From NCBI GenBank assembly GCA_963674735.2, contig CAXXQS010000001.1:2080001-2144000 (forward strand): a stretch of 64,000 nt of DNA, given 5' to 3'. Position 1 is the first letter of the stretch. Each line of letters opens with the position of its first letter. This document shows positions 20,824 through 26,482 of this stretch, one piece after another. The position numbers and the translations under genes were made by a program. Source of the stretch: Myxococcota bacterium (GTDB lineage: Bacteria > Myxococcota_A > SURF-8). The notes beneath the pieces are model-generated. The model was not told the DNA's origin. It made no database searches and saw only the letters and a program-made list of their open reading frames with translations.

Positions 20824-22149
20824 ATGAAAACGATCCGAACGCAAACCGATGTGGTGGTGGCCGGCTCCGGTCCCGGCGGGGCCACGGTCGCGCGTCAACT
20901 CGCCCGAGCCGGAAAGAAAGTGGTGCTGCTCGAAAAGGGACGCGAACAGCGCATGATCGGCAATCACTTCGCCGCGCTGCTTTTCGCCGACCGCCTCGGA
21001 TTGTCGTTCAGCGAAGAAGGCATGAACATCGTGCGCGCCTTCATCTCCGGCGGCTCGACCATCATGTATTGCGGCGCGGCTTCCGAACCGCCCGAGTGGT
21101 TCAACAGCCGCTACGGGATCGACCTCGCCCCCTATTGCCGCGAGACCATCGAAGAACTCAAGCTCGAACCCTTGCCCGATGAAATCGTGGGCAGCGCCGG
21201 GTTGCGCATTCTGGAAGCGGGCAACGAGCTGGGCCACGGATTTCAAAAGCTGCCCAAGTTCATTTCGCCCGAACGTTGCCGCATGCGCTGCGGCGGCACC
21301 TGCATGCTGGGCTGCCCGCACAAAGCCAAGTGGACCGCCCGCGAATACATCCAGGACATGCGCGAGGCCGGAGGCGAGTTGATTGCTCGCGCCGACGTGC
21401 AGGAGGTCATCATCGAAGACGGCGTGGCGCGAGGACTTCGCGCACTCACCCCGCACGGCCTGCTGGAAGTCGCGGCCGAGACCGTCGTCATTGCGGCGGG
21501 CGGCATCGGAACGCCGTCGATTCTGCAACGCTCGGGATTGCATGAAGCAGGACAACGCATGTTCGTCGACCCGCTACTGTTCGTCACCGGCGTCTCGCGC
21601 TTTGCGGGCACCTGCCAAGGACCGCCCATGACCGTGGGCACCTACGACTACATCGAGGAAGGCATCCTGCTATCCGATCTGATCGACCCCTGGGGGATGT
21701 GGCTGATCATGACCTTGCTGCGCAACCCCTCCAAGCTTTTGAACTTTCTGTCCTACCGCCGTCAATTGAGCCTGATGGTGAAGATCGGCGACGAACACGA
21801 GGGCTTCATCACGATGGACGGCCGCATCTCCAAGCCGCTCAGCCTACGCGATCGGCAACGCCTCAACCGCGGGGCCTCCATGGCACGTCAGATTCTCATC
21901 AAGGCGGGCTGCCGTCCCGATTCCATCATGGTCGGCCCGGTGCGCGGCGCGCATCCCGGAGCCACAGCGCGTATCGGCGATGTGGTGGACCGCAACCTGC
22001 AAACGCGCATCCCCGGCCTCTACGTGTCCGACGCCTCGGTCATCCCCGAAGCACTCGACCGCCCGGTGGTTCTCACGCTCATCAGTCTGGCCAAACGCCT
22101 TTCAGAACATCTGCTGGCAGGCGGGAAAGAAAAGATGGGGCAGACGTGA
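20824..22149 (+). CDS. GMC family FAD-dependent oxidoreductase
   Basis: GSGPGG, LEKG, GGST, CRMRCGGTCMLGCP, AAGGIGTP, HPGATA and YVSDASVIP motifs. Confidence 0.85.
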   Translation: MKTIRTQTDVVVAGSGPGGATVARQLARAGKKVVLLEKGREQRMIGNHFAALLFADRLGLSFSEEGMNIVRAFISGGSTIMYCGAASEPPEWFNSRYGIDLAPYCRETIEELKLEPLPDEIVGSAGLRILEAGNELGHGFQKLPKFISPERCRMRCGGTCMLGCPHKAKWTAREYIQDMREAGGELIARADVQEVIIEDGVARGLRALTPHGLLEVAAETVVIAAGGIGTPSILQRSGLHEAGQRMFVDPLLFVTGVSRFAGTCQGPPMTVGTYDYIEEGILLSDLIDPWGMWLIMTLLRNPSKLLNFLSYRRQLSLMVKIGDEHEGFITMDGRISKPLSLRDRQRLNRGASMARQILIKAGCRPDSIMVGPVRGAHPGATARIGDVVDRNLQTRIPGLYVSDASVIPEALDRPVVLTLISLAKRLSEHLLAGGKEKMGQT

Positions 22150-22232
22150 GAGAGAGTGCCTGTTTAAGGAATGCCCCCTCACCATCTTTCAATTTGCATA
22201 TCTTGGGCATGAATGTTGTCCATTCCGCTCAT

Positions 22233-22283
22233 CCGTGTTGGAACGCGTCTCCGACGGGCTCCGGATGTTGCGTCATTCATCTT
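22233..22283 (+). repeat. REP-like repeat A, copy 1
   Basis: CCGTGTTGGAACGCGTCTCCGACGGGCTCCGGATGTTGCGTCATTCATCTT; 49/51 identical to 26483-26533; internal imperfect hairpin. Confidence 0.8.
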
Positions 22284-22425
22284 ATTCTTTGGCAGGAACA
22301 GGGCTCTGTCCTGTGCCGCAGGTTTGTCCAACCGAGTAGGACGGGAGCCCTTCGAACGGAAGGGGTCGACAAAGTAGGGAACGGCCAACCTGAAAACGAG
22401 GCGTTCTGGTGTGTGCATACACGAA

Positions 22426-22449
22426 GATGGGCAACAAGTTGCCCATCCT
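22426..22449 (-). repeat. GTAG-type REP (repeat B) interrupted by IS110
   Basis: Perfect hairpin GATGGGCAAC-AA-GTTGCCCATC. Removing the IS rebuilds GTAG-GATGGGCAAC-TT-GTTGCCCATC on the minus strand. Confidence 0.75.
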
Positions 22450-22463
22450 TGTATTATCCCTTT

Positions 22464-22665
22464 CAAGCGACTGTCATCGTTTGTGATGATAAGATGAAAC
22501 GACCTCCCGTAGCAAGCGGGAGGCCGTGGTGGGCGGCGAGATCGTCCCATCCTGGGGCCTGATGAGCCCGTTTTGTAGCCGGATCCGCCGTCCGTTTCGT
22601 CCGGGAAAACCCGAACAGTCGCAGGGGCCATTGTAATCGAAATGAGCCCGTATTGGCAAGGAAGG
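22464..22665 (+). ncRNA. IS110 bridge RNA (predicted; ends approximate)
   Basis: Target loop TCCCATCCT (22545-53) / GTAG (22575-78) matches the flanks GCCCATC-CT-AC. Donor loop ACAGTCGC (22615-22) / CAAG (22657-60) matches the junction ACAGTCG-CT-TG. Each guide pair flanks a GGGC...GCCC stem. Confidence 0.8.
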
Positions 22666-22672
22666 GTGCGCC

Positions 22673-23608
22673 ATGAAGAAATGGATCGGGATCGACGTCA
22701 GCAAAGCCGTTTTCGATGTCGCCGTCGACGGCGAAAGCACGTGCGTCCGCTACGCTTACACCAAAGCCGGCATGACACGCTTCGTCCGTTCGTTGAAGCG
22801 GATCGAGGTGGAGGGCGTCGTGATGGAAGCCACCGGCGGCTACGAACGGGAGCTGTGCAAACGTCTTCAGAAAGCGGGTTGGCCGGTGGCGGTGGTCAAT
22901 CCCCGGCGCATCCGGGATTATGCCCGCGCCGTCGGCGTGATGGCGAAAACGGATCGACTCGATGCGGGCATCATCGCACGCTACGCAGCCGCCATGCGTC
23001 CCGCACCGAACGAAACGCTCGGCGAAACCGCCCTCCTGTTAAAAGCCCTGTCTTCACGGAGGCGGCAGCTGGTCGCCATGCGCACGATGGAGAAAAACCG
23101 CACCGAACACGTGGGCGATCGGACGATCGGACAAAGCCTGCACCGCATTCTGGAGGTGATCGAACGGGAAATCGAGCGGCTGGATCGGGCCATCGCGGCG
23201 GCCATTGCATCGGATCGGGAGCGCAGCGACCGGGCCGCGCGGCTCCAAACGATGCCGGGCGTCGGCGCGTGCACGGCGAATCTTCTGGTGACGGATCTGC
23301 CGGAGCTGGGGATCTACAACCGGCGGCAGATCGCGGCGTTGATCGGCGTGGCGCCCATGAATCGGGACAGCGGAACGTTTCGGGGTAAACGCATGACCGG
23401 CGGCGGTCGTCATCGCCTGCGCACGGCGCTCTACATGCCGACGCTGGTGGCGATTCAACACAACCCGGTGATTCGCGGACACTACCAGCGGCTGGTCGGA
23501 CGCGGCAAACCGAAGATGACGGCGGTGGTGGCCTGCATGCGAAAATTGGTCCTCATTCTCAACACGATGATGCGGAAAAACGAAGCCTGGAACCCGAATT
23601 TCGCTTGA
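22673..23608 (+). CDS. IS110 family recombinase/transposase (DEDD RuvC + Transposase_20)
   Basis: GIDVSK, VMEATG, KTDRLDA (DEDD), MPGVG, GVAPMNRDSG (catalytic Ser) and ACMRKL motifs; intact 311 aa. Confidence 0.95.
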   Translation: MKKWIGIDVSKAVFDVAVDGESTCVRYAYTKAGMTRFVRSLKRIEVEGVVMEATGGYERELCKRLQKAGWPVAVVNPRRIRDYARAVGVMAKTDRLDAGIIARYAAAMRPAPNETLGETALLLKALSSRRRQLVAMRTMEKNRTEHVGDRTIGQSLHRILEVIEREIERLDRAIAAAIASDRERSDRAARLQTMPGVGACTANLLVTDLPELGIYNRRQIAALIGVAPMNRDSGTFRGKRMTGGGRHRLRTALYMPTLVAIQHNPVIRGHYQRLVGRGKPKMTAVVACMRKLVLILNTMMRKNEAWNPNFA

Positions 23609-23610
23609 CA
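23605..23610 (+). promoter_or_regulatory. -35 box of the IS110 circle-junction promoter
   Basis: TTGACA at the right end. On circularisation it lies exactly 17 bp from TATTAT (22452-22457). Confidence 0.8.
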
Positions 23611-23650
23611 CCGATAACAGTCGCTACTCACTACTCACTAATCATCATTC

Positions 23651-23679
23651 CCGTGTTGGAGCGTGTCTCCGACGGGCTC
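23651..23679 (+). repeat. REP-like repeat A, copy 2 (short)
   Basis: CCGTGTTGGAGCGTGTCTCCGACGGGCTC. Confidence 0.78.
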
Positions 23680-23695
23680 TCGCTATGCCCCGTTT

Positions 23696-24622
23696 TTAAT
23701 ATGCTTGATGAGGTTGCCTGGACATGTAAAGGATCACAAAGGACTCCATGGGTAGTTTACCGATATTCACGGCTTTTCCCCCCTTATTGCAGTTCGAATC
23801 AACGCAAAGCGATTTAGGCTCTATTGCACATCCTTCATTTCTTAGGAGAATCTGGAATTTGCAAATTAGAGGTTCGTACCCAAACGTAGAGAAAAAGAAT
23901 TCCGAGGTGTCTTCAGGAAACGCATTATATTTCCAGTAGGCTTTTTCCGAGGTAAAGCCTTCAACAGAGACATTGATCTCGGTGAATCCCATTTCCGTAC
24001 CTCTTACATGCTGAAGGCCGACTCCTTTAGGAATTCTCCAGCAATTGGTATTGTCATCCTGCACGGCAAATGAAAAAAAGACGTGTGGCTCAACATCGAA
24101 GGTGATTTCTGAAAGGTCCTGATTCAAAGGAGTTGCAAAAGGGTTCTGCGTAAAGTGGAGGGAGTTTTCCTTCAATTTATATTCCGCAGGAAAGGGAATT
24201 TTGTAACTCTGACATGTTTCCATCTCATTATTGAGATTATAGCTTGAAGGCAATTCATCCTCATCAATAACCCGAATCAACACTGCACTTTTTTCCGCAA
24301 TCCATACCCCATTTGAGGAGGTGAAATCGACTTTCGGCAATACCCCTTCAAACTTTACTCGTTTGCATCTATGTTGCTGTCCGTTCGAGATCCGAAAGGT
24401 TGCTATATCCGAATAATATGATTGGATATTCACTTTAATCGATACATATGCGCCCTCTGTTAATTCCGAGCTGAACTTCGGACACAGGTCTATCCTTCCT
24501 ACATTAACGGATTTGTTTTGGACTTCGCCCGGTCGTGGATGCCTTCCCCCACACACGATCAACAGAACGACAATCGTAGCCAGAGCGGTAACAATCAACA
24601 ACGTTCGCATAACCAATCTCAT
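23696..24622 (-). CDS. Hypothetical membrane-anchored or secreted Cys-containing protein (AT-rich)
   Basis: N-terminal hydrophobic helix MRLVMRTLLIVTALATIVVLLIVC; starts 5 bp after the stop of the SIR2-like gene. Confidence 0.65.
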   Translation of the reverse strand: MRLVMRTLLIVTALATIVVLLIVCGGRHPRPGEVQNKSVNVGRIDLCPKFSSELTEGAYVSIKVNIQSYYSDIATFRISNGQQHRCKRVKFEGVLPKVDFTSSNGVWIAEKSAVLIRVIDEDELPSSYNLNNEMETCQSYKIPFPAEYKLKENSLHFTQNPFATPLNQDLSEITFDVEPHVFFSFAVQDDNTNCWRIPKGVGLQHVRGTEMGFTEINVSVEGFTSEKAYWKYNAFPEDTSEFFFSTFGYEPLICKFQILLRNEGCAIEPKSLCVDSNCNKGGKAVNIGKLPMESFVILYMSRQPHQAY

Positions 24623-24627
24623 TTCGT

Positions 24628-26271
24628 CTACTTGCAGCTCTTTTCCCAATTGTCGATCTCTGATTGGGGAATGGGTGCGGTTTGATATATCCAGCAAATG
24701 ATCAGCTTCTCTTGCACGTCGTTCTGCAACAGGACGCTATCGATCTCCCGGGCATAGTCGTCATATATTTCGTCCTGTATCAATTGCAGGTTAGCCGTTT
24801 CTCGTTCTTCATCCGCCAACAACACCTGAATCAATCTTCGCAGCTGAACAGCAGCGTCTGTTGCATTCTTGACATTGAGCCGATTGAGGGAGAATCGTCT
24901 TTGAATAAGCTTGCGTATTCCCAACGCCTGCGCTCTATCGATTTCCTTGCAAAACTCTTTCAGCGCCTTACGGCTCTCACCGGTTGTCCCATCCTTGATG
25001 ATACGGTCGTATCGATCATTGAACTGTTTCAAATCTTTATACCCCAATTGCGGAGGATCAGGTTTCCCGGGTTTACTAGGTTCCTCAGGTTCGTCACCAT
25101 CAAGCGGTTCAAAATAGGGATCAGGTTCAGGCTTCGGGTACCTCTTTGGCTTCTCCTTGATTTCTTTGTCTTTTTCAGGATTCGGTAGATCCACGGGCGG
25201 CTCTTCATCCAGATCTAATTCATTTTCAATTCCAAAATCAATATCGCCATCTACAATTTTCTGTGGAGTATAATTTTTCGTTTCACTTTGTAGCAGCCAA
25301 ACAATGAATGGAACCAGTAAACCTATCAACATTATTGCGACTACTACTCTTTTATGCCTATCTTGGCTTTTTATAAATTTTTCAATGCTTGGATCTTCTT
25401 CTTTTTCTTCAACAACCAACAGCTGCAAAAAATAGTTGATATATTTCTGCCATGTCGGAAAATCAGACGGTTCTTCCCTGAAAGGAACGATCTTGACGCC
25501 AACATTTTTCCACCTATTGGTAATTTCTGAACTTAGATCGTTTTGATCGACAAACATAACGGCATTCAACACACCTTTGCCGCTATTTTGCGCATTTACA
25601 AAAAGCCGAAGTATTTGTTCCAGGTCGGGATCATCGATCTCGTACCCCATTATCAAACAAGGGTTATCTTGAATTAGTTTGACGGCATGCTTAAATAGTT
25701 CGGATTTTCGAACTCGATCGAACTCAGTGTTTGAAAACACGCCCTGTTTTTCATCTATTGGATGTCCATGTAAGTACAATAAGTCGACAGAGCCTTCTTT
25801 CTTTTTTGCAACCGTCGCACGTGCAGGCTCCATGACTCTCGTGCGTTTGTCATCTTCCAGAAGCGTATCGAACTGACTCGTGGTTATATACGCATCAATG
25901 GGGATTTTCTGTAACAGCTGATGACTATTTCCCGGGGAAAGATCGCTGGCGTTCGCCTTATCCCTGATTGCTTCTTTCAGACCTGTTGAGCCAATGCGCT
26001 GTTCAATCTCCTGAGCGACCGCTCTAATGTCCGTTTGTTCGAATTCATTCTTGTTTTCAACCCCGTAATCTCCAGCTCCTGAATATAATACATAATCCCA
26101 TCTGCGGTAATCTTTGGCCAACTGACCACTTACCCGGTGCGCCGCCATTGAAACTTGATGGCCAACAATAACCACAGGTTTATTGATTTTGGCACTTTGC
26201 ACCCAATTTTGCAGATCTTCTACGTAACTCGCTTCGAATGCCTTTTCCAACTTTTCGAAAGTTGCATCCAT
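24628..26271 (-). CDS. SIR2_2-like domain + TM helix + Pro/acidic linker + helical C-terminal domain
   Basis: VVIVGHQVS, YITTSQFDTLLE, LYLHGHP and LIMGYEIDDPDL echo the SIR2_2 motifs GAGxS, TTNYD, HG and GYSxxD; TM segment VVVAIMLIGLLVPFIVWLL. Confidence 0.7.
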   Translation of the reverse strand: MDATFEKLEKAFEASYVEDLQNWVQSAKINKPVVIVGHQVSMAAHRVSGQLAKDYRRWDYVLYSGAGDYGVENKNEFEQTDIRAVAQEIEQRIGSTGLKEAIRDKANASDLSPGNSHQLLQKIPIDAYITTSQFDTLLEDDKRTRVMEPARATVAKKKEGSVDLLYLHGHPIDEKQGVFSNTEFDRVRKSELFKHAVKLIQDNPCLIMGYEIDDPDLEQILRLFVNAQNSGKGVLNAVMFVDQNDLSSEITNRWKNVGVKIVPFREEPSDFPTWQKYINYFLQLLVVEEKEEDPSIEKFIKSQDRHKRVVVAIMLIGLLVPFIVWLLQSETKNYTPQKIVDGDIDFGIENELDLDEEPPVDLPNPEKDKEIKEKPKRYPKPEPDPYFEPLDGDEPEEPSKPGKPDPPQLGYKDLKQFNDRYDRIIKDGTTGESRKALKEFCKEIDRAQALGIRKLIQRRFSLNRLNVKNATDAAVQLRRLIQVLLADEERETANLQLIQDEIYDDYAREIDSVLLQNDVQEKLIICWIYQTAPIPQSEIDNWEKSCK

Positions 26272-26482
26272 GATACGGCCCCGCACCTATATTTAATACA
26301 ATTTGTCTGGTGATTCTGTTTGCTTGAACTGCATAGCACGTCATAATAGGTATAATCAAGTATTTTGGTGATTTTCTTGATACGATTGATATCTTGGATT
26401 TGGGTGAGATTTTTCTACTTTTTGGGGATGGCTTTGCGCAACATATTGAGCTTTTTTCTGCTAGTCAAATGGTTCCGATCCC

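What the first reader, a model, noticed from the sequence alone, without database searches (positions are those of the whole stretch)
22448..23627. Complete IS110 bridge-recombinase element with readable guides, programmed against a host REP
Seen: all four guide segments match their DNA partners. Left target guide TCCCATCCT vs flank GCCCATCCT (8/9); right target guide GTAG vs CTAC; left donor guide (A)ACAGTCGC vs right end AACAGTCGCT; right donor guide CAAG vs CTTG. The CT core is at both ends, the circle junction makes TTGACA-N17-TATTAT, and the DEDD+Ser recombinase is intact. Known: IS621 bridge RNA works this way and also targets REPs. Inference: an active, compact 311-aa ortholog from a distant lineage with a different donor (ACAGTCG-CT-TG) and target specificity, a candidate orthogonal programmable recombinase.
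Basis: partly seen in the sequence, partly recalled or inferred. Interest (0 to 1): 0.8.

Follow-up and report, generated by a model that had tools for sequence, protein, structure and literature searches.

The report
REP-targeting IS110 bridge-RNA insertion sequence
This is an intact jumping gene of the IS110 family that carries its own two-loop guide ("bridge") RNA aimed at a repeated hairpin of its host genome; it is a genuine new example of a system first described in 2024, not a new kind of system.

Summary
Window 22450-23625 is a 1176-bp IS110-group insertion sequence. It has a 223-nt left end, a 311-aa DEDD+Ser recombinase gene and a 17-nt right end. The genome holds 8 identical copies. 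Each sits at the 3' foot of the same REP hairpin (…GTTGCCCATC-CT|AC), and 17 further exact sites are still empty. The left end folds into two stem/internal-loop modules laid out like the IS621 bridge RNA. The left target guide, right target guide and both donor guides, plus the first handshake-guide bases, match their DNA partners. Across 22 related left ends the stems covary (16 of 25 pairs compensatory; 0/500 shuffles reach the observed values). The 8-nt left target guide follows each element's own flank (18 of 22 at 8/8; 0/20000 permutations). The right target guide switches GUAG to UCAG where the flank switches AC to GA. A covariance model built here finds the RNA upstream of the recombinase in 60 of 71 held-out loci. 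Transcription, circle formation and recombination were not tested. "Compact", "distant" and "orthogonal" are overstated: thousands of 311-aa relatives exist, and the donor differs from IS621's at 2 of the 9 positions I could verify. It is a new member of a known kind, of modest interest.

The parts
22426..22447 (+). REP hairpin GATGGGCAAC-AA-GTTGCCCATC. Its 3' arm is the left target. The last 6 nt (22442-22447, CCCATC) plus the core are read by the left target guide.
   Evidence: The identical left flank occurs at all 8 copies. GTTGCCCATC occurs 75 times in the genome against about 10 expected. All 17 empty CCCATCCTAC sites lie in this hairpin context.
22448..22449 (+). Core dinucleotide CT, left copy (crossover site).
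   Evidence: CT is present at both junctions in 8 of 8 copies. A CT core is described for IS621.
22450..22672 (+). Left non-coding end (223 nt) encoding the bridge RNA. It starts TG-TAT (right donor plus the TAT half of the short subterminal inverted repeat).
   Evidence: MFE -93.9 kcal/mol, z = -4.1 against shuffles. Consensus structure and covariation. The model R1 hit spans 22528-22670.
22452..22457 (+). -10 box TATTAT of the promoter that forms only across the joined right end and left end.
   Evidence: Read. A 17-nt spacing to a right-end TTGA.. hexamer is kept in 34 of 38 distinct ortholog junctions.
22464..22474 (+). CAAGCGACTGT, an exact inverted copy of the 11-bp donor site (left donor + CT + TG). 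As RNA it is complementary to the left donor guide. Role unknown.
   Evidence: Significant complementarity only in 3 of 44 left ends tested. Pairing probabilities are inconsistent among relatives.
22503..22523 (+). 5' stem-loop CCUCCCG-uagcaa-GCGGGAGG.
   Evidence: Paired in the MFE fold. Relatives have a hairpin at the same place with unrelated sequences (read by eye).
22530..22594 (+). Target-binding loop module: basal stem 22530-22543 with 22582-22594, and inner hairpin 22554-22570.
   Evidence: Helix 1: 13 pairs, 10 with compensatory changes, 96% of cells paired. Helix 2: 3 pairs, 2 compensatory.
22546..22553 (+). Left target guide CCCAUCCU, preceded by the conserved linker CGU at 22543-22545.
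   Evidence: 8/8 identical to the flank 22442-22449. In 18 of 22 aligned relatives the same columns equal that element's own flank 8/8. 12 distinct guide 6-mers occur. 0 of 20000 permutations reach the observed matches.
22575..22580 (+). Right target guide GUAG (22575-78), followed by handshake-guide positions CC (22579-80).
   Evidence: GUAG is the reverse complement of CT-AC. Guide and flank are complementary in 20 of 20 rows with a readable right flank, including 2 rows that changed to UCAG / CT-GA. L036 has GCAG with CT-GC. The first C can pair with donor position 7 (G23623).
22609..22667 (+). Donor-binding loop module: basal stem 22609-22612 with 22664-22667, and inner hairpin 22624-22649.
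   Evidence: Helix 3: 4 pairs, 3 compensatory. Helix 5: 3 pairs, 1 compensatory.
22615..22622 (+). Left donor guide ACAGUCGC, followed by A22623. It ends at the core C, as the IS621 left donor guide A123-C130 does before A131.
   Evidence: Identical to right end 23616-23623. Equal to the element's own right end in 17 of 20 rows and 7/8 in the other 3. IS621 layout.
22652..22662 (+). Right donor guide AUUGGCAAG (CAAG at 22657-60 pairs CT-TG; AU can pair the A-T of TGTAT discontiguously), followed by handshake-guide positions GA (22661-62).
   Evidence: The same 9-over-7 discontiguous layout is described for IS621. G22661 can pair with target position 7 (C22447) and A22662 with T22446.
22673..23608 (+). 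Recombinase gene, 311 aa (RuvC-like DEDD domain, coiled coil, Tnp domain with the catalytic Ser).
   Evidence: PF01548 and PF02371. ISCro4 (9t56) E 3e-37 and IS621 (8wt6) E 1e-34 over residues 4-300. D8, E52, D94, D97, S233 and G234 are invariant in 39 homologues.
23605..23610 (+). -35 box TTGACA of the junction promoter; it overlaps the stop codon.
23614..23625 (+). Right-end tip: ATA (subterminal repeat half), left donor ACAGTCG (23617-23623) and core CT (23624-25).
   Evidence: An ATA…TAT pattern flanking the donor is described for the IS110 group (legend of Extended Data Fig. 10).
23626..23627 (+). Right target AC (host DNA).
   Evidence: AC follows the element in 8 of 8 copies, followed by T in 7 and G in 1.

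Best explanation
Window 22450-23625 is a functional-looking IS110-group insertion sequence that moves by bridge-RNA-guided recombination, as IS621 does.

**Proposed cycle**
1. The element is cut out as a circle by recombination at the CT cores.
2. Joining right end to left end creates the promoter TTGACA-N17-TATTAT. This promoter transcribes the left end and the recombinase gene.
3. The left-end RNA folds into a 5' hairpin and two stem/internal-loop modules.
4. [quoted passage not shown] GUAG pairs with the top strand CT-AC.
5. [quoted passage not shown] AU..CAAG pairs with the top strand CT-TG..AT (the element's left tip).
6. A tetramer of the 311-aa recombinase joins the two loops. The composite active site is D8/E52/D94/D97 with Ser233 as nucleophile. 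It exchanges top strands next to CT, helped by the handshake bases C22579 and G22661, and then resolves the Holliday junction.
7. The result is insertion without target duplication at …GTTGCCCATC-CT|AC….

**Shown here**
- The anatomy, and the identity of all four guides with their DNA partners.
- 8 identical copies in 8 different loci, all in the same site.
- Covariation of the stems.
- Covariation of the left and right target guides with the flanks among relatives.

**Inferred from the IS621 literature**
- Transcription, RNA-protein binding, the chemistry, and present-day activity.
For: **Copies and target**
- There are 8 full-length copies at 100% identity. Their left flank GATGGGCAACAAGTTGCCCATC-CT is identical, the right flank is AC, and the DNA further out differs between loci.
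- The exact 10-mer CCCATCCTAC occurs at 17 empty sites, and 17 of 17 lie in the REP hairpin.
- Only these 8 IS110-type genes and 8 model-R1 RNA hits occur in the genome.
- A 1202-bp unitig (22426-23627) lies at about 8 times the depth of the flanking contigs, with no variant letters, in 3 runs of one study. That study may be the source sample.

**Protein**
- Both Pfam domains are present.
- The best solved relatives are the ISCro4 and IS621 transposases.
- The five catalytic residues are invariant in 39 homologues.

**RNA structure**
- RNAalifold on 22 left ends predicts two stem/internal-loop modules. 16 of 25 pairs show compensatory change.
- 95.5% of cells are paired, against 81.5% in shuffles. 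0 of 500 shuffles reach the observed value on any of the 5 measures. Slid controls pair only 29-46%.
- Model R1, built from those 22 sequences, finds a match at E <= 0.01 on the recombinase strand in 60 of 71 held-out loci. These include elements with IS621-like right ends (L122, L139) and an E. coli plasmid element.

**Guides**
- The left target guide equals the element's own flank 8/8 in 18 of 22 rows. 12 different guide 6-mers occur. 68 of 78 non-core positions match in 13 distinct rows, and 0 of 20000 permutations reach that.
- In the held-out set of 25 loci, the mean longest common stretch between loop and flank is 5.84 against 3.60 permuted (0 of 5000).
- The right target guide is complementary to the flank in 20 of 20 readable rows, including the change UCAG / CT-GA.
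- Sister elements in other families of the same order carry CCCGACCU and sit in …CCCGAC-CT|AC hairpins.
- The motif matching this element's guide is enriched only in the host's own family (G000 16, G001 30, G002 34, G004 28; 0 in four genomes of three other families).

**Agreement with published IS621 anatomy**
- 9-nt left and 4-nt right target guides, an 8-nt left donor guide ending at the core C, a discontiguous right donor guide, handshake guides, the junction promoter, the ATA/TAT repeat, and REP targets ending …CT-AC.
Against: - No direct evidence of function was obtained. No RNA run holds the stretch, and the DNA runs are kept only as contigs. Those contigs showed no circle junction and no empty-site joint.
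- Identity of the 8 copies rests on one assembly plus runs that may be its own source.
- Rfam has no bridge-RNA family. The only Rfam hit (sX15) is below threshold and on the opposite strand.
- I could not fetch IS621 itself, so the likeness to its RNA rests on the published description and not on an alignment.
- The handshake bases and the donor guides are nearly invariant in the aligned set. Their match is therefore consistent with pairing but not tested by covariation.
- Some relatives match their flank imperfectly. L044 is 6/8. The two Terriglobia rows are 4/8 and 3/8 in this register, and one of them fits only when shifted by one base.
Confidence: 0.93

Rival explanations
1. The element is a recently silenced or host-tamed IS. 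The anatomy is intact but it no longer moves, for example because the bridge RNA is not made from integrated copies or excision is too rare.
For: No circle junction or empty-site joint was seen in the contigs laid. The strong promoter exists only in the circle. IS621 excises less efficiently than it inserts and depends on read-through transcription (abstract and section 5 of PMC13626964).
Against: 8 copies are identical over 1176 bp, with all ORFs open (stops inside: none) and all guides intact. 17 perfect target sites are still free. Contigs cannot show rare molecules, so the blank carries no weight.
Confidence: 0.2
2. Site choice is made mainly by the protein recognising the REP hairpin (shape or sequence). 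The RNA-DNA complementarity is secondary or accidental.
For: Every insertion lies at the foot of a perfect 10-bp hairpin. A 2026 preprint on ISPpu10 (abstract only read) reports that a target stem-loop 5' of the site is an added specificity determinant.
Against: The guide follows the flank base for base through 12 different sequences in relatives, and permutations never reach this. The right target guide changes with the flank outside the hairpin. In IS621, reprogramming the loop redirects insertion (passages of PMC11208160). The hairpin may add to base pairing but cannot replace it.
Confidence: 0.05
3. The left-end RNA is a regulatory small RNA, or the target of an antisense RNA that controls the recombinase. 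It would not be a guide.
For: The Rfam small-RNA family sX15 matches the minus strand of the left end below threshold: the window at 23.5 bits, and 4 of 16 other loci at 30-40 bits (gathering score 55). A minus-strand promoter-like site TTGCCA-N18-TACAAT lies at 22659-22630.
Against: Regulation alone does not explain why two internal loops carry the target and donor sequences and covary with them. All sX15 hits are sub-threshold. An antisense RNA could exist alongside the guide function.
Confidence: 0.02

Closest known systems
IS621 of Escherichia coli (IS110 group): recombinase plus 177-nt bridge RNA (Durrant et al. 2024, PMC11208160; Hiraizumi et al. 2024, PMC11208158)
   Same: - Domain pair PF01548+PF02371, with DEDD and Ser aligned.
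- Long left end, short right end, CT core, and a junction promoter with the -35 box in the right end and the -10 box in the left end.
- ATA/TAT repeat around the donor.
- RNA with a 5' hairpin and two internal-loop modules.
- Left target guide on the 5' side and 4-nt right target guide GUAG on the 3' side.
- 8-nt left donor guide ending at the core C followed by A.
- Discontiguous 9-nt right donor guide ending CAAG.
- Handshake positions.
- Target at the 3' foot of a REP hairpin ending CT-AC. IS621's natural site is ATCAGGC-CT-AC.
- Donor positions 8-14 (C,T,T,G,T,A,T as named) are the same.
   Different: - The recombinase is related only at E 1e-34 and is 311 aa, not 326 aa.
- The left end is 223 nt, not 191 nt. 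This leaves about 35 extra nt of leader between the junction -10 box and the 5' hairpin.
- The left target is CCCATC, not ATCAGGC. The guide proper is 8 nt because the ninth position is a fixed U.
- Donor positions 6-7 are C,G, not A,T.
- The host belongs to an unnamed, sparsely sampled class (10 species genomes).
- No experiment exists for this element.
ISCro4 / IS622 of Citrobacter rodentium (Perry et al. 2025 preprint, 10.1101/2025.05.14.653916; PDB 9t56)
   Same: It is the best-scoring solved relative (E 3e-37) and has the same two-component system.
   Different: It is 88% identical to IS621, so it is as distant from this element as IS621 is. It was found active in human cells. In that screen 18 of 72 orthologues gave a detectable product and only this one gave a quantifiable signal. 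Sequence features alone therefore do not predict usefulness.
ISPpu10 / ISPpu9 of Pseudomonas putida (REP-targeting IS110 elements)
   Same: Multiple copies sit in identical intergenic palindromes. A GC-rich stem-loop lies immediately 5' of the insertion point (abstract of 10.64898/2026.03.19.712850; search listing of PMC12288879).
   Different: I did not compare the sequences. The stem-loop requirement has been tested there and not here.
The unnamed 311-aa clade to which this element belongs (metagenomes, Terriglobia, Gemmatimonadales, Chloroflexota and Latescibacterota MAGs)
   Same: - Recombinases are 43-64% identical.
- The same RNA model fits.
- The same donor ACAGTCG-CT-TGTAT occurs in all 20 aligned relatives whose right end could be read, and the right target AC in 18 of those 20.
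- Seven aligned relatives (six metagenomic, plus G001 of the host's own family) even share the left target guide CCCAUCCU.
   Different: The nearest protein found is only 64% identical. The left target guide differs between hosts in step with their REPs.
Rfam RF02234 sX15 (Xanthomonadaceae sRNA)
   Same: It is the only Rfam family that aligns to the left end, over the span of both loops.
   Different: All hits are below the gathering score and lie on the strand opposite to the recombinase. This is not a membership. It may mean that the family was built on the other strand of an IS110 left end, which I did not test.

Membership tests
IS110 family, IS110 group (insertion sequence) | [quoted passage not shown] | tested here: met
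   (3e-22 and 8e-19, both above cut-off). D8, E52, D94, D97 and S233 are aligned to the IS621 residues and invariant in 39 homologues.
IS110 family, IS110 group (insertion sequence) | No terminal inverted repeats of the usual kind and no target duplication beyond the shared core dinucleotide | tested here: met
   The flanks of 8 copies read …CCCATC-CT[IS]…CT-AC…. Only CT is common to both junctions.
IS110 family, IS110 group (insertion sequence) | Long left end, short right end, and a short ATA…TAT subterminal repeat (distinguishes it from the IS1111 group) | tested here: met
   Left end 223 nt. The right end is 17 nt after the stop codon. ATA at 23614-16 and TAT at 22452-54 (criterion).
IS110 family, IS110 group (insertion sequence) | A promoter assembled across the joined ends of the circular form | tested here: met
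   TTGACA-N17-TATTAT by sequence. The 17-nt spacing is conserved in 34 of 38 distinct ortholog junctions. Promoter activity was not tested.
IS110 family, IS110 group (insertion sequence) | Excision as a double-stranded circle | not testable with these tools
   Only contigs of 3 runs were available, and no joint was seen. This is no evidence either way.
IS621-type bridge RNA | Encoded in the left end on the recombinase strand, with a 5' hairpin and two stem/internal-loop modules | tested here: met
   (stem covariation beyond shuffled and slid controls). Model R1 hits lie on the plus strand upstream of the gene in 60 of 71 held-out loci.
IS621-type bridge RNA | First loop: the 5' side has the sequence of the target's left top strand including the core, and the 3' side is complementary to the core plus right target | tested here: met
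   8/8 and 4/4 in the window. Both covary with the flanks in relatives.
IS621-type bridge RNA | Second loop: the 5' side has the sequence of the donor's left top strand, and the 3' side is complementary to the core plus right donor | tested here: met
   8/8 (9/9 counting A22614) and CAAG plus AU in the window. The donor hardly varies in the aligned set, so covariation is weak. L036 shows ACAGUUGC with right end CAGTTGCT.
IS621-type bridge RNA | Handshake guides: the base after the right target guide pairs with donor position 7, and the base after the right donor guide pairs with target position 7 | tested here: inconclusive
   C22579 with G23623 and G22661 with C22447 fit. The same fit holds in all rows, but these positions never vary there.
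IS621-type bridge RNA | The RNA is transcribed, binds the recombinase and directs recombination; changing the guides redirects it | not testable with these tools
   No RNA run was listed.
IS621-type bridge RNA | Alignable to the IS621 bridge RNA itself | not tested
   The IS621 sequence could not be fetched. The comparison rests on the nucleotide numbering and bases given in PMC11208158.
REP (repetitive extragenic palindrome) as target | A short imperfect palindrome repeated many times in the genome | tested here: met
   75 half-sites against about 10 expected. 42 strand-views show the full 10-bp palindrome. The motif with its CT-AC tail is enriched in 4 of the 5 other genomes of the host's family.
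REP (repetitive extragenic palindrome) as target | Located between genes | tested here: inconclusive
   The window copy lies between ORF 20824-22149 and ORF 23696-24697. The other sites were not checked against genes.

The most novel reading that the evidence does not exclude
This element and its closest sisters add a control layer that IS621 lacks. The extra ~35-nt leader made from the junction promoter begins with CAAGCGACUGU (22464-22474). That is an exact RNA copy of the donor's bottom strand. It can pair with the left donor guide and mask the donor-binding loop. An extended -10-like box (TGATAAGAT, 22487-22495) just upstream of the 5' hairpin could give a second, leaderless and unmasked bridge RNA from integrated copies. 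Two transcripts of one locus would then separate the state with an open donor loop from the state with a closed one. This would tune insertion against excision.
Probability: 0.08. Interest if true: 0.55.

Novelty: new member of a known kind. Interest (0 to 1): 0.3.

Why it matters
It adds one well-documented natural bridge-recombinase system. The documentation includes element limits, all guide segments, 25 natural target sites (8 filled, 17 empty) and sister elements with a retargeted loop. The host lineage is poorly sampled, and the element belongs to a large 311-aa clade that shares one donor sequence.

The sister elements form a natural reprogramming series. The scaffold and donor stay the same, while the left target guide reads CCCAUC, CCCGAC, CCUGCC, CCCACC and so on, each matching its host's palindrome. 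This series could help in choosing scaffolds and in learning which loop positions tolerate change.

It does not change what is known about the mechanism. Published screening found few orthologues useful outside bacteria (18 of 72 detectable, 1 quantifiable).

Tried and rejected
**Rfam.** Rfam release 15 has no family above threshold on the region. The only hit is sX15 on the minus strand (23.5 bits against a gathering score of 55). The same hit recurs sub-threshold in 4 of 16 other loci.

**Fetching IS621 for a direct RNA alignment.**
- tblastn of the plasmid collection gave E. coli hits at 42% identity.
- The one I fetched (L146) is not IS621 (E 4.7e-36 to 8wt6).
- blastn of the IS621-like metagenome locus L122 against the E. 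coli genomes found nothing.
- I dropped the direct alignment and used the published numbering.

**More orthologues.** The class-level search for more orthologues covered the same 10 genomes and added nothing.

**Sequencing runs.** No RNA holder is listed. Three DNA runs of one study are kept as contigs only. Laying them showed no joint, no circle junction and no empty site. I draw no conclusion on expression or mobility from this.

**Leader masking the donor guide.**
- Complementarity between the leader and the left donor guide is significant (p <= 0.05 against shuffles) in 3 of 44 distinct left ends. These are the window, G001 and G004; G008 reaches 7/8.
- The predicted pairing probability is high in the window, partial in G008 and G004, and nil in G001.
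- It is therefore not a family feature, and I keep it only as a low-odds idea.

**Other blanks.**
- A full-text search for the donor and target motifs returned 490 papers. The 15 listed were unrelated, judging by their titles. This says nothing on whether the element is in print.
I did not use the look-up of encoding contigs because it is marked closed.
- Supplementary files were not opened (closed). The supplementary tables of Durrant et al. 2024 and Perry et al. 2025 list their orthologues, so I cannot say whether this element or a near relative is among them.
- I considered a structure prediction and a complex prediction but did not run them.
- RNAalifold's helix 4 (2 pairs inside the donor guide) shows no covariation. 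I regard it as spurious.
Full report
**What is there**

The sequence of 22200-23900 and the ORF list show one long ORF, 22673-23608 on the plus strand (311 aa). A 223-nt non-coding stretch precedes it, and only 17 nt follow it before the host sequence resumes.

The protein carries the two Pfam domains of IS110-family recombinases: PF01548 at 3e-22 and PF02371 at 8e-19. Its best solved relatives are the ISCro4 transposase (9t56, E 3e-37) and the IS621 transposase (8wt6, E 1e-34), aligned over residues 4-300. In those alignments D8, E52, D94, D97 and S233 stand at the IS621 residues D11, E60, D102, D105 and S241. The structure paper names these as the composite active site (PMC11208158, passages read). 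All five, and G234, are invariant in an alignment of 39 homologues.

**Limits, copies and target**

- The window's genome (5.26 Mb, 3 contigs) holds 8 full-length copies at 100% identity.
- Cutting them out with flanks shows the same left flank in all 8, GATGGGCAACAAGTTGCCCATC-CT. The right flank is AC, followed by T in 7 copies and G in 1. Further out the DNA differs from locus to locus.
- Two copies share 52 bp of right flank and two share a left-flank module. In each pair the opposite flank differs, so all 8 are separate loci.
- Only the dinucleotide CT is common to both junctions. The element is therefore 22450-23625 (1176 bp with one core), and it makes no target duplication.
- The left flank is a perfect 10-bp hairpin. 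Its half-site GTTGCCCATC occurs 75 times against about 10 expected. It is followed by CTAC 16 times and by CTTG 8 times, the latter being the 8 insertions.
- The exact 10-mer CCCATCCTAC occurs 17 times, and all 17 lie in the hairpin context. The genome therefore offers 25 such sites, of which 8 are filled.
- There are no other IS110-type genes in the genome and no solitary copies of the left-end RNA.
- Contigs of three public runs of one study, possibly the source sample, contain a 1202-bp unitig spanning exactly 22426-23627. Its depth is about 8 times that of the flanking contigs, and it has no variant letters.

**The RNA**

The left end folds far better than shuffles (-93.9 kcal/mol, z = -4.1).

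I collected relatives from three sources:
- sister genomes of the same class: G008 with 8 copies at 62% protein identity, G001 at 59%, G004 at 57%, and G009 with 4 full copies at 54%;
- named MAGs, such as a Terriglobia chromosome with 5 copies at 45%;
- 80 metagenome contigs.

An alignment of 22 distinct left ends gives an RNAalifold consensus of a long basal stem enclosing a small hairpin, followed by a second basal stem enclosing a second hairpin. This amounts to two stem/internal-loop modules.

- 16 of 25 pairs keep pairing through changes on both sides.
- On the named structure, 95.5% of cells pair against 81.5% in shuffles.
- None of 500 shuffles reaches the observed value on any of five measures.
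- Sliding the partners by 1-3 columns drops pairing to 29-46%.
- A 5' hairpin (22503-22523) is present in the relatives with unrelated sequences (read by eye).

A covariance model built from the 22 sequences finds a match at E <= 0.01 in 60 of 71 loci that were not used to build it. Every match is on the recombinase strand just upstream of the gene. The hits include two elements whose right ends resemble IS621's and an E. coli plasmid element.

**The guides**

The published layout of IS621 is as follows:
- a 9-nt left target guide on the 5' side of the first loop, pairing with the bottom strand;
- a 4-nt right target guide on the 3' side, pairing with the top strand CT-AC;
- an 8-nt left donor guide ending at the core C, followed by an A;
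- a 9-nt right donor guide that pairs discontiguously with 7 donor bases;
- two handshake positions after each right guide.

The window has the same layout (coordinates):

| Feature | Sequence and position | DNA partner |
|---|---|---|
| Left target guide | CCCAUCCU, 22546-22553 | flank 22442-22449 |
| Right target guide | GUAG, 22575-22578 | CT-AC |
| Left donor guide | ACAGUCGC, 22615-22622, then A | right tip 23616-23623 |
| Right donor guide | AUUGGCAAG, 22652-22660 | CT-TG and the A-T of TGTAT |
| Handshake base | C22579 | donor position 7 (G) |
| Handshake base | G22661 | target position 7 (C) |

That linker is conserved in all 22 sequences whatever the flank.

**Guide-target covariation**

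This is the strongest evidence, because it does not depend on this element alone.

- In the 22 aligned left ends, the 8 guide columns equal that element's own left flank 8/8 in 18 rows. One row is 7/8, one is 6/8, and the two Terriglobia rows are 4/8 and 3/8. One of the Terriglobia rows fits if shifted by one base.
- There are 12 different guide 6-mers. In 13 distinct rows 68 of 78 non-core positions match, and no permutation of 20000 reaches that.
- The right target guide is complementary to the right flank in all 20 rows where the flank could be read. Two of these rows have changed together to UCAG and CT-GA. A Chloroflexota MAG element has GCAG with CT-GC.
- In 25 held-out, more distant loci, the longest common stretch between the loop's 5' side and the flank averages 5.84 nt against 3.60 nt for permuted pairs (0 of 5000).

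The sister elements form a natural retargeting series. G008 and G009 carry CCCGACCU and sit in …CCCGAC-CT|AC hairpins, whereas G000 and G001 carry CCCAUCCU. The motif GCCCATCCTAC is enriched only in the host's own family. Counts there are 16, 30, 34 and 28 in four of six genomes, with controls of 0-4, and it is absent from the four genomes of the other three families. CCCGACCTAC is abundant in G006 and G009 (122 and 133) but not in G000 (4). G008 is an exception, with 13 sites against a control of 37.

**Promoter**

Joining the right end to the left end gives TTGACA-N17-TATTAT. The 17-nt spacing between a right-end TTGA.. hexamer and a left-end TAT..T hexamer holds in 34 of 38 distinct ortholog junctions. 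Two of the four exceptions are artefacts of my pattern hitting inside the donor. In IS621 this junction promoter drives the bridge RNA, while integrated copies rely on weak read-through.

**What it most likely does**

It moves as IS621 does:
1. excision to a circle;
2. expression from the junction promoter;
3. a bridge RNA that holds the REP target in one loop and the joined ends in the other;
4. a recombinase tetramer with Ser233 as nucleophile;
5. top-strand exchange next to CT, then Holliday-junction resolution.

The anatomy, the copy pattern and the covariation are shown here. Transcription, binding, chemistry and present activity are inferred from the family. I put 0.93 on 'genuine IS110-group element with an IS621-type bridge RNA aimed at the host REP'. 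I put about 0.75 on its being mobile today.

**How it compares**

By every feature I could test it is a member of the IS110 group, and its RNA is of the IS621 type (see the membership table). It differs from IS621 in these ways:
- a distant protein (E 1e-34);
- 311 aa, not 326 aa;
- a left end 32 nt longer;
- an 8-nt left target guide;
- a different left target;
- donor positions 6-7 (C,G, not A,T), while positions 8-14 and the right target AC are the same.

It is not exceptional within its own clade. The protein database returns 7955 relatives among 8000 scored candidates, and most of the best 120 are 311 aa and 50-64% identical. All 20 aligned relatives whose right end could be read share the donor ACAGTCG-CT, and seven share the same left target guide. 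Since 2024 thousands of such RNAs have been catalogued, and 72 orthologues have been screened in human cells, of which 18 were detectable and 1 was quantifiable. The finding is correct and cleanly documented, but it is a new member of a known kind.

**Unexplained or incidental**

- The leader contains an exact inverted copy of the 11-bp donor site (22464-22474). As RNA it could mask the left donor guide. This is conserved only in the closest relatives (3 of 44 left ends), and the predicted pairing is inconsistent.
- An extended -10-like box lies just upstream of the 5' hairpin in this subgroup (by eye).
- In the integrated state the REP supplies a weak -35-like hexamer, TGGGCA-N18-TATTAT.
- Rfam's sX15 model repeatedly touches the left end on the opposite strand, below threshold.
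- Immediately downstream of the element lies a low-GC islet (42-45% GC against about 60%) with a SIR2_2-domain protein.

**Limits of this work**

- There are no RNA data and no raw reads.
- IS621 itself was not aligned.
- Related genomes are kin, so the permutation figures overstate independence. The 12 different guide sequences are the fairer count.

Noticed in passing
window 22464-22474: CAAGCGACTGT is an exact inverted copy of the element's 11-bp donor site (left donor + CT + TG), 15 nt inside the left end. As RNA it is complementary to the left donor guide, and the MFE fold pairs the two. It is well conserved only in G001 and G004 (8/8 allowing G-U) and partly in G008 (7/8).
   Followed up: partly
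window 22487-22495: TGATAAGAT is an extended -10-like box, with TAAGAT ending about 7 nt before the 5' hairpin. Similar boxes occur at the same place in G008 (TGTATAAT), G009 (TGGTAAAAT), G004 (TGTTATGAT) and L066 (TGGTAGAAT), but not in another subgroup of relatives. It may be an internal promoter giving a ~172-nt RNA from integrated copies.
   Followed up: no
window 22428-22457: In the integrated state the REP hairpin supplies a -35-like hexamer: TGGGCA-N18-TATTAT (9 of 12 matches). The same flank is present at all 8 copies.
   Followed up: no
window 22527-22659 (minus strand); also L032, L031, L045, L066: The Rfam family sX15 (RF02234, Xanthomonadaceae sRNA) aligns below threshold (23.5-40.4 bits; gathering score 55) to the strand opposite the bridge RNA, over both loops, in the window and in 4 of 16 other loci. 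The family may have been built on IS110 left ends read on the other strand.
   Followed up: partly
window 22659-22630 (minus strand): A promoter-like site TTGCCA-N18-TACAAT (10 of 12 matches) points antisense through the donor-binding loop.
   Followed up: no
window 22236-22262 and 23654-23680: A second repeat family (…GTGTTGGA(A/G)CG(C/T)GTCTCCGACGGGCTC) flanks the insertion on both sides. Its 15-nt core GTCTCCGACGGGCTC occurs 18 times in the genome. The window copy and the copy at C1:316 kb share 52 bp of right flank containing it.
   Followed up: partly
window 23696-26286: A low-GC islet (42-45% GC against about 60% around it) lies directly downstream of the element. It encodes a 552-aa protein with a SIR2_2 domain (24628-26286, minus strand; E 2.6e-8) and a 333-aa protein with no Pfam match (23696-24697, minus strand). 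It may be an acquired defence-type module.
   Followed up: partly
genomes G000-G009 (class of the host): The REP sites often come as convergent pairs 55-70 bp apart. Several IS copies have an empty partner site close to their left end. The target motif is enriched only in the host's family, while the CCCGAC variant dominates in family f2.
   Followed up: partly
L031 (Gemmatimonadales MAG contig), downstream of the right end: The right end of this relative is followed directly by a sequence that repeats its own left end. This suggests a head-to-tail second (possibly partial) copy.
   Followed up: no
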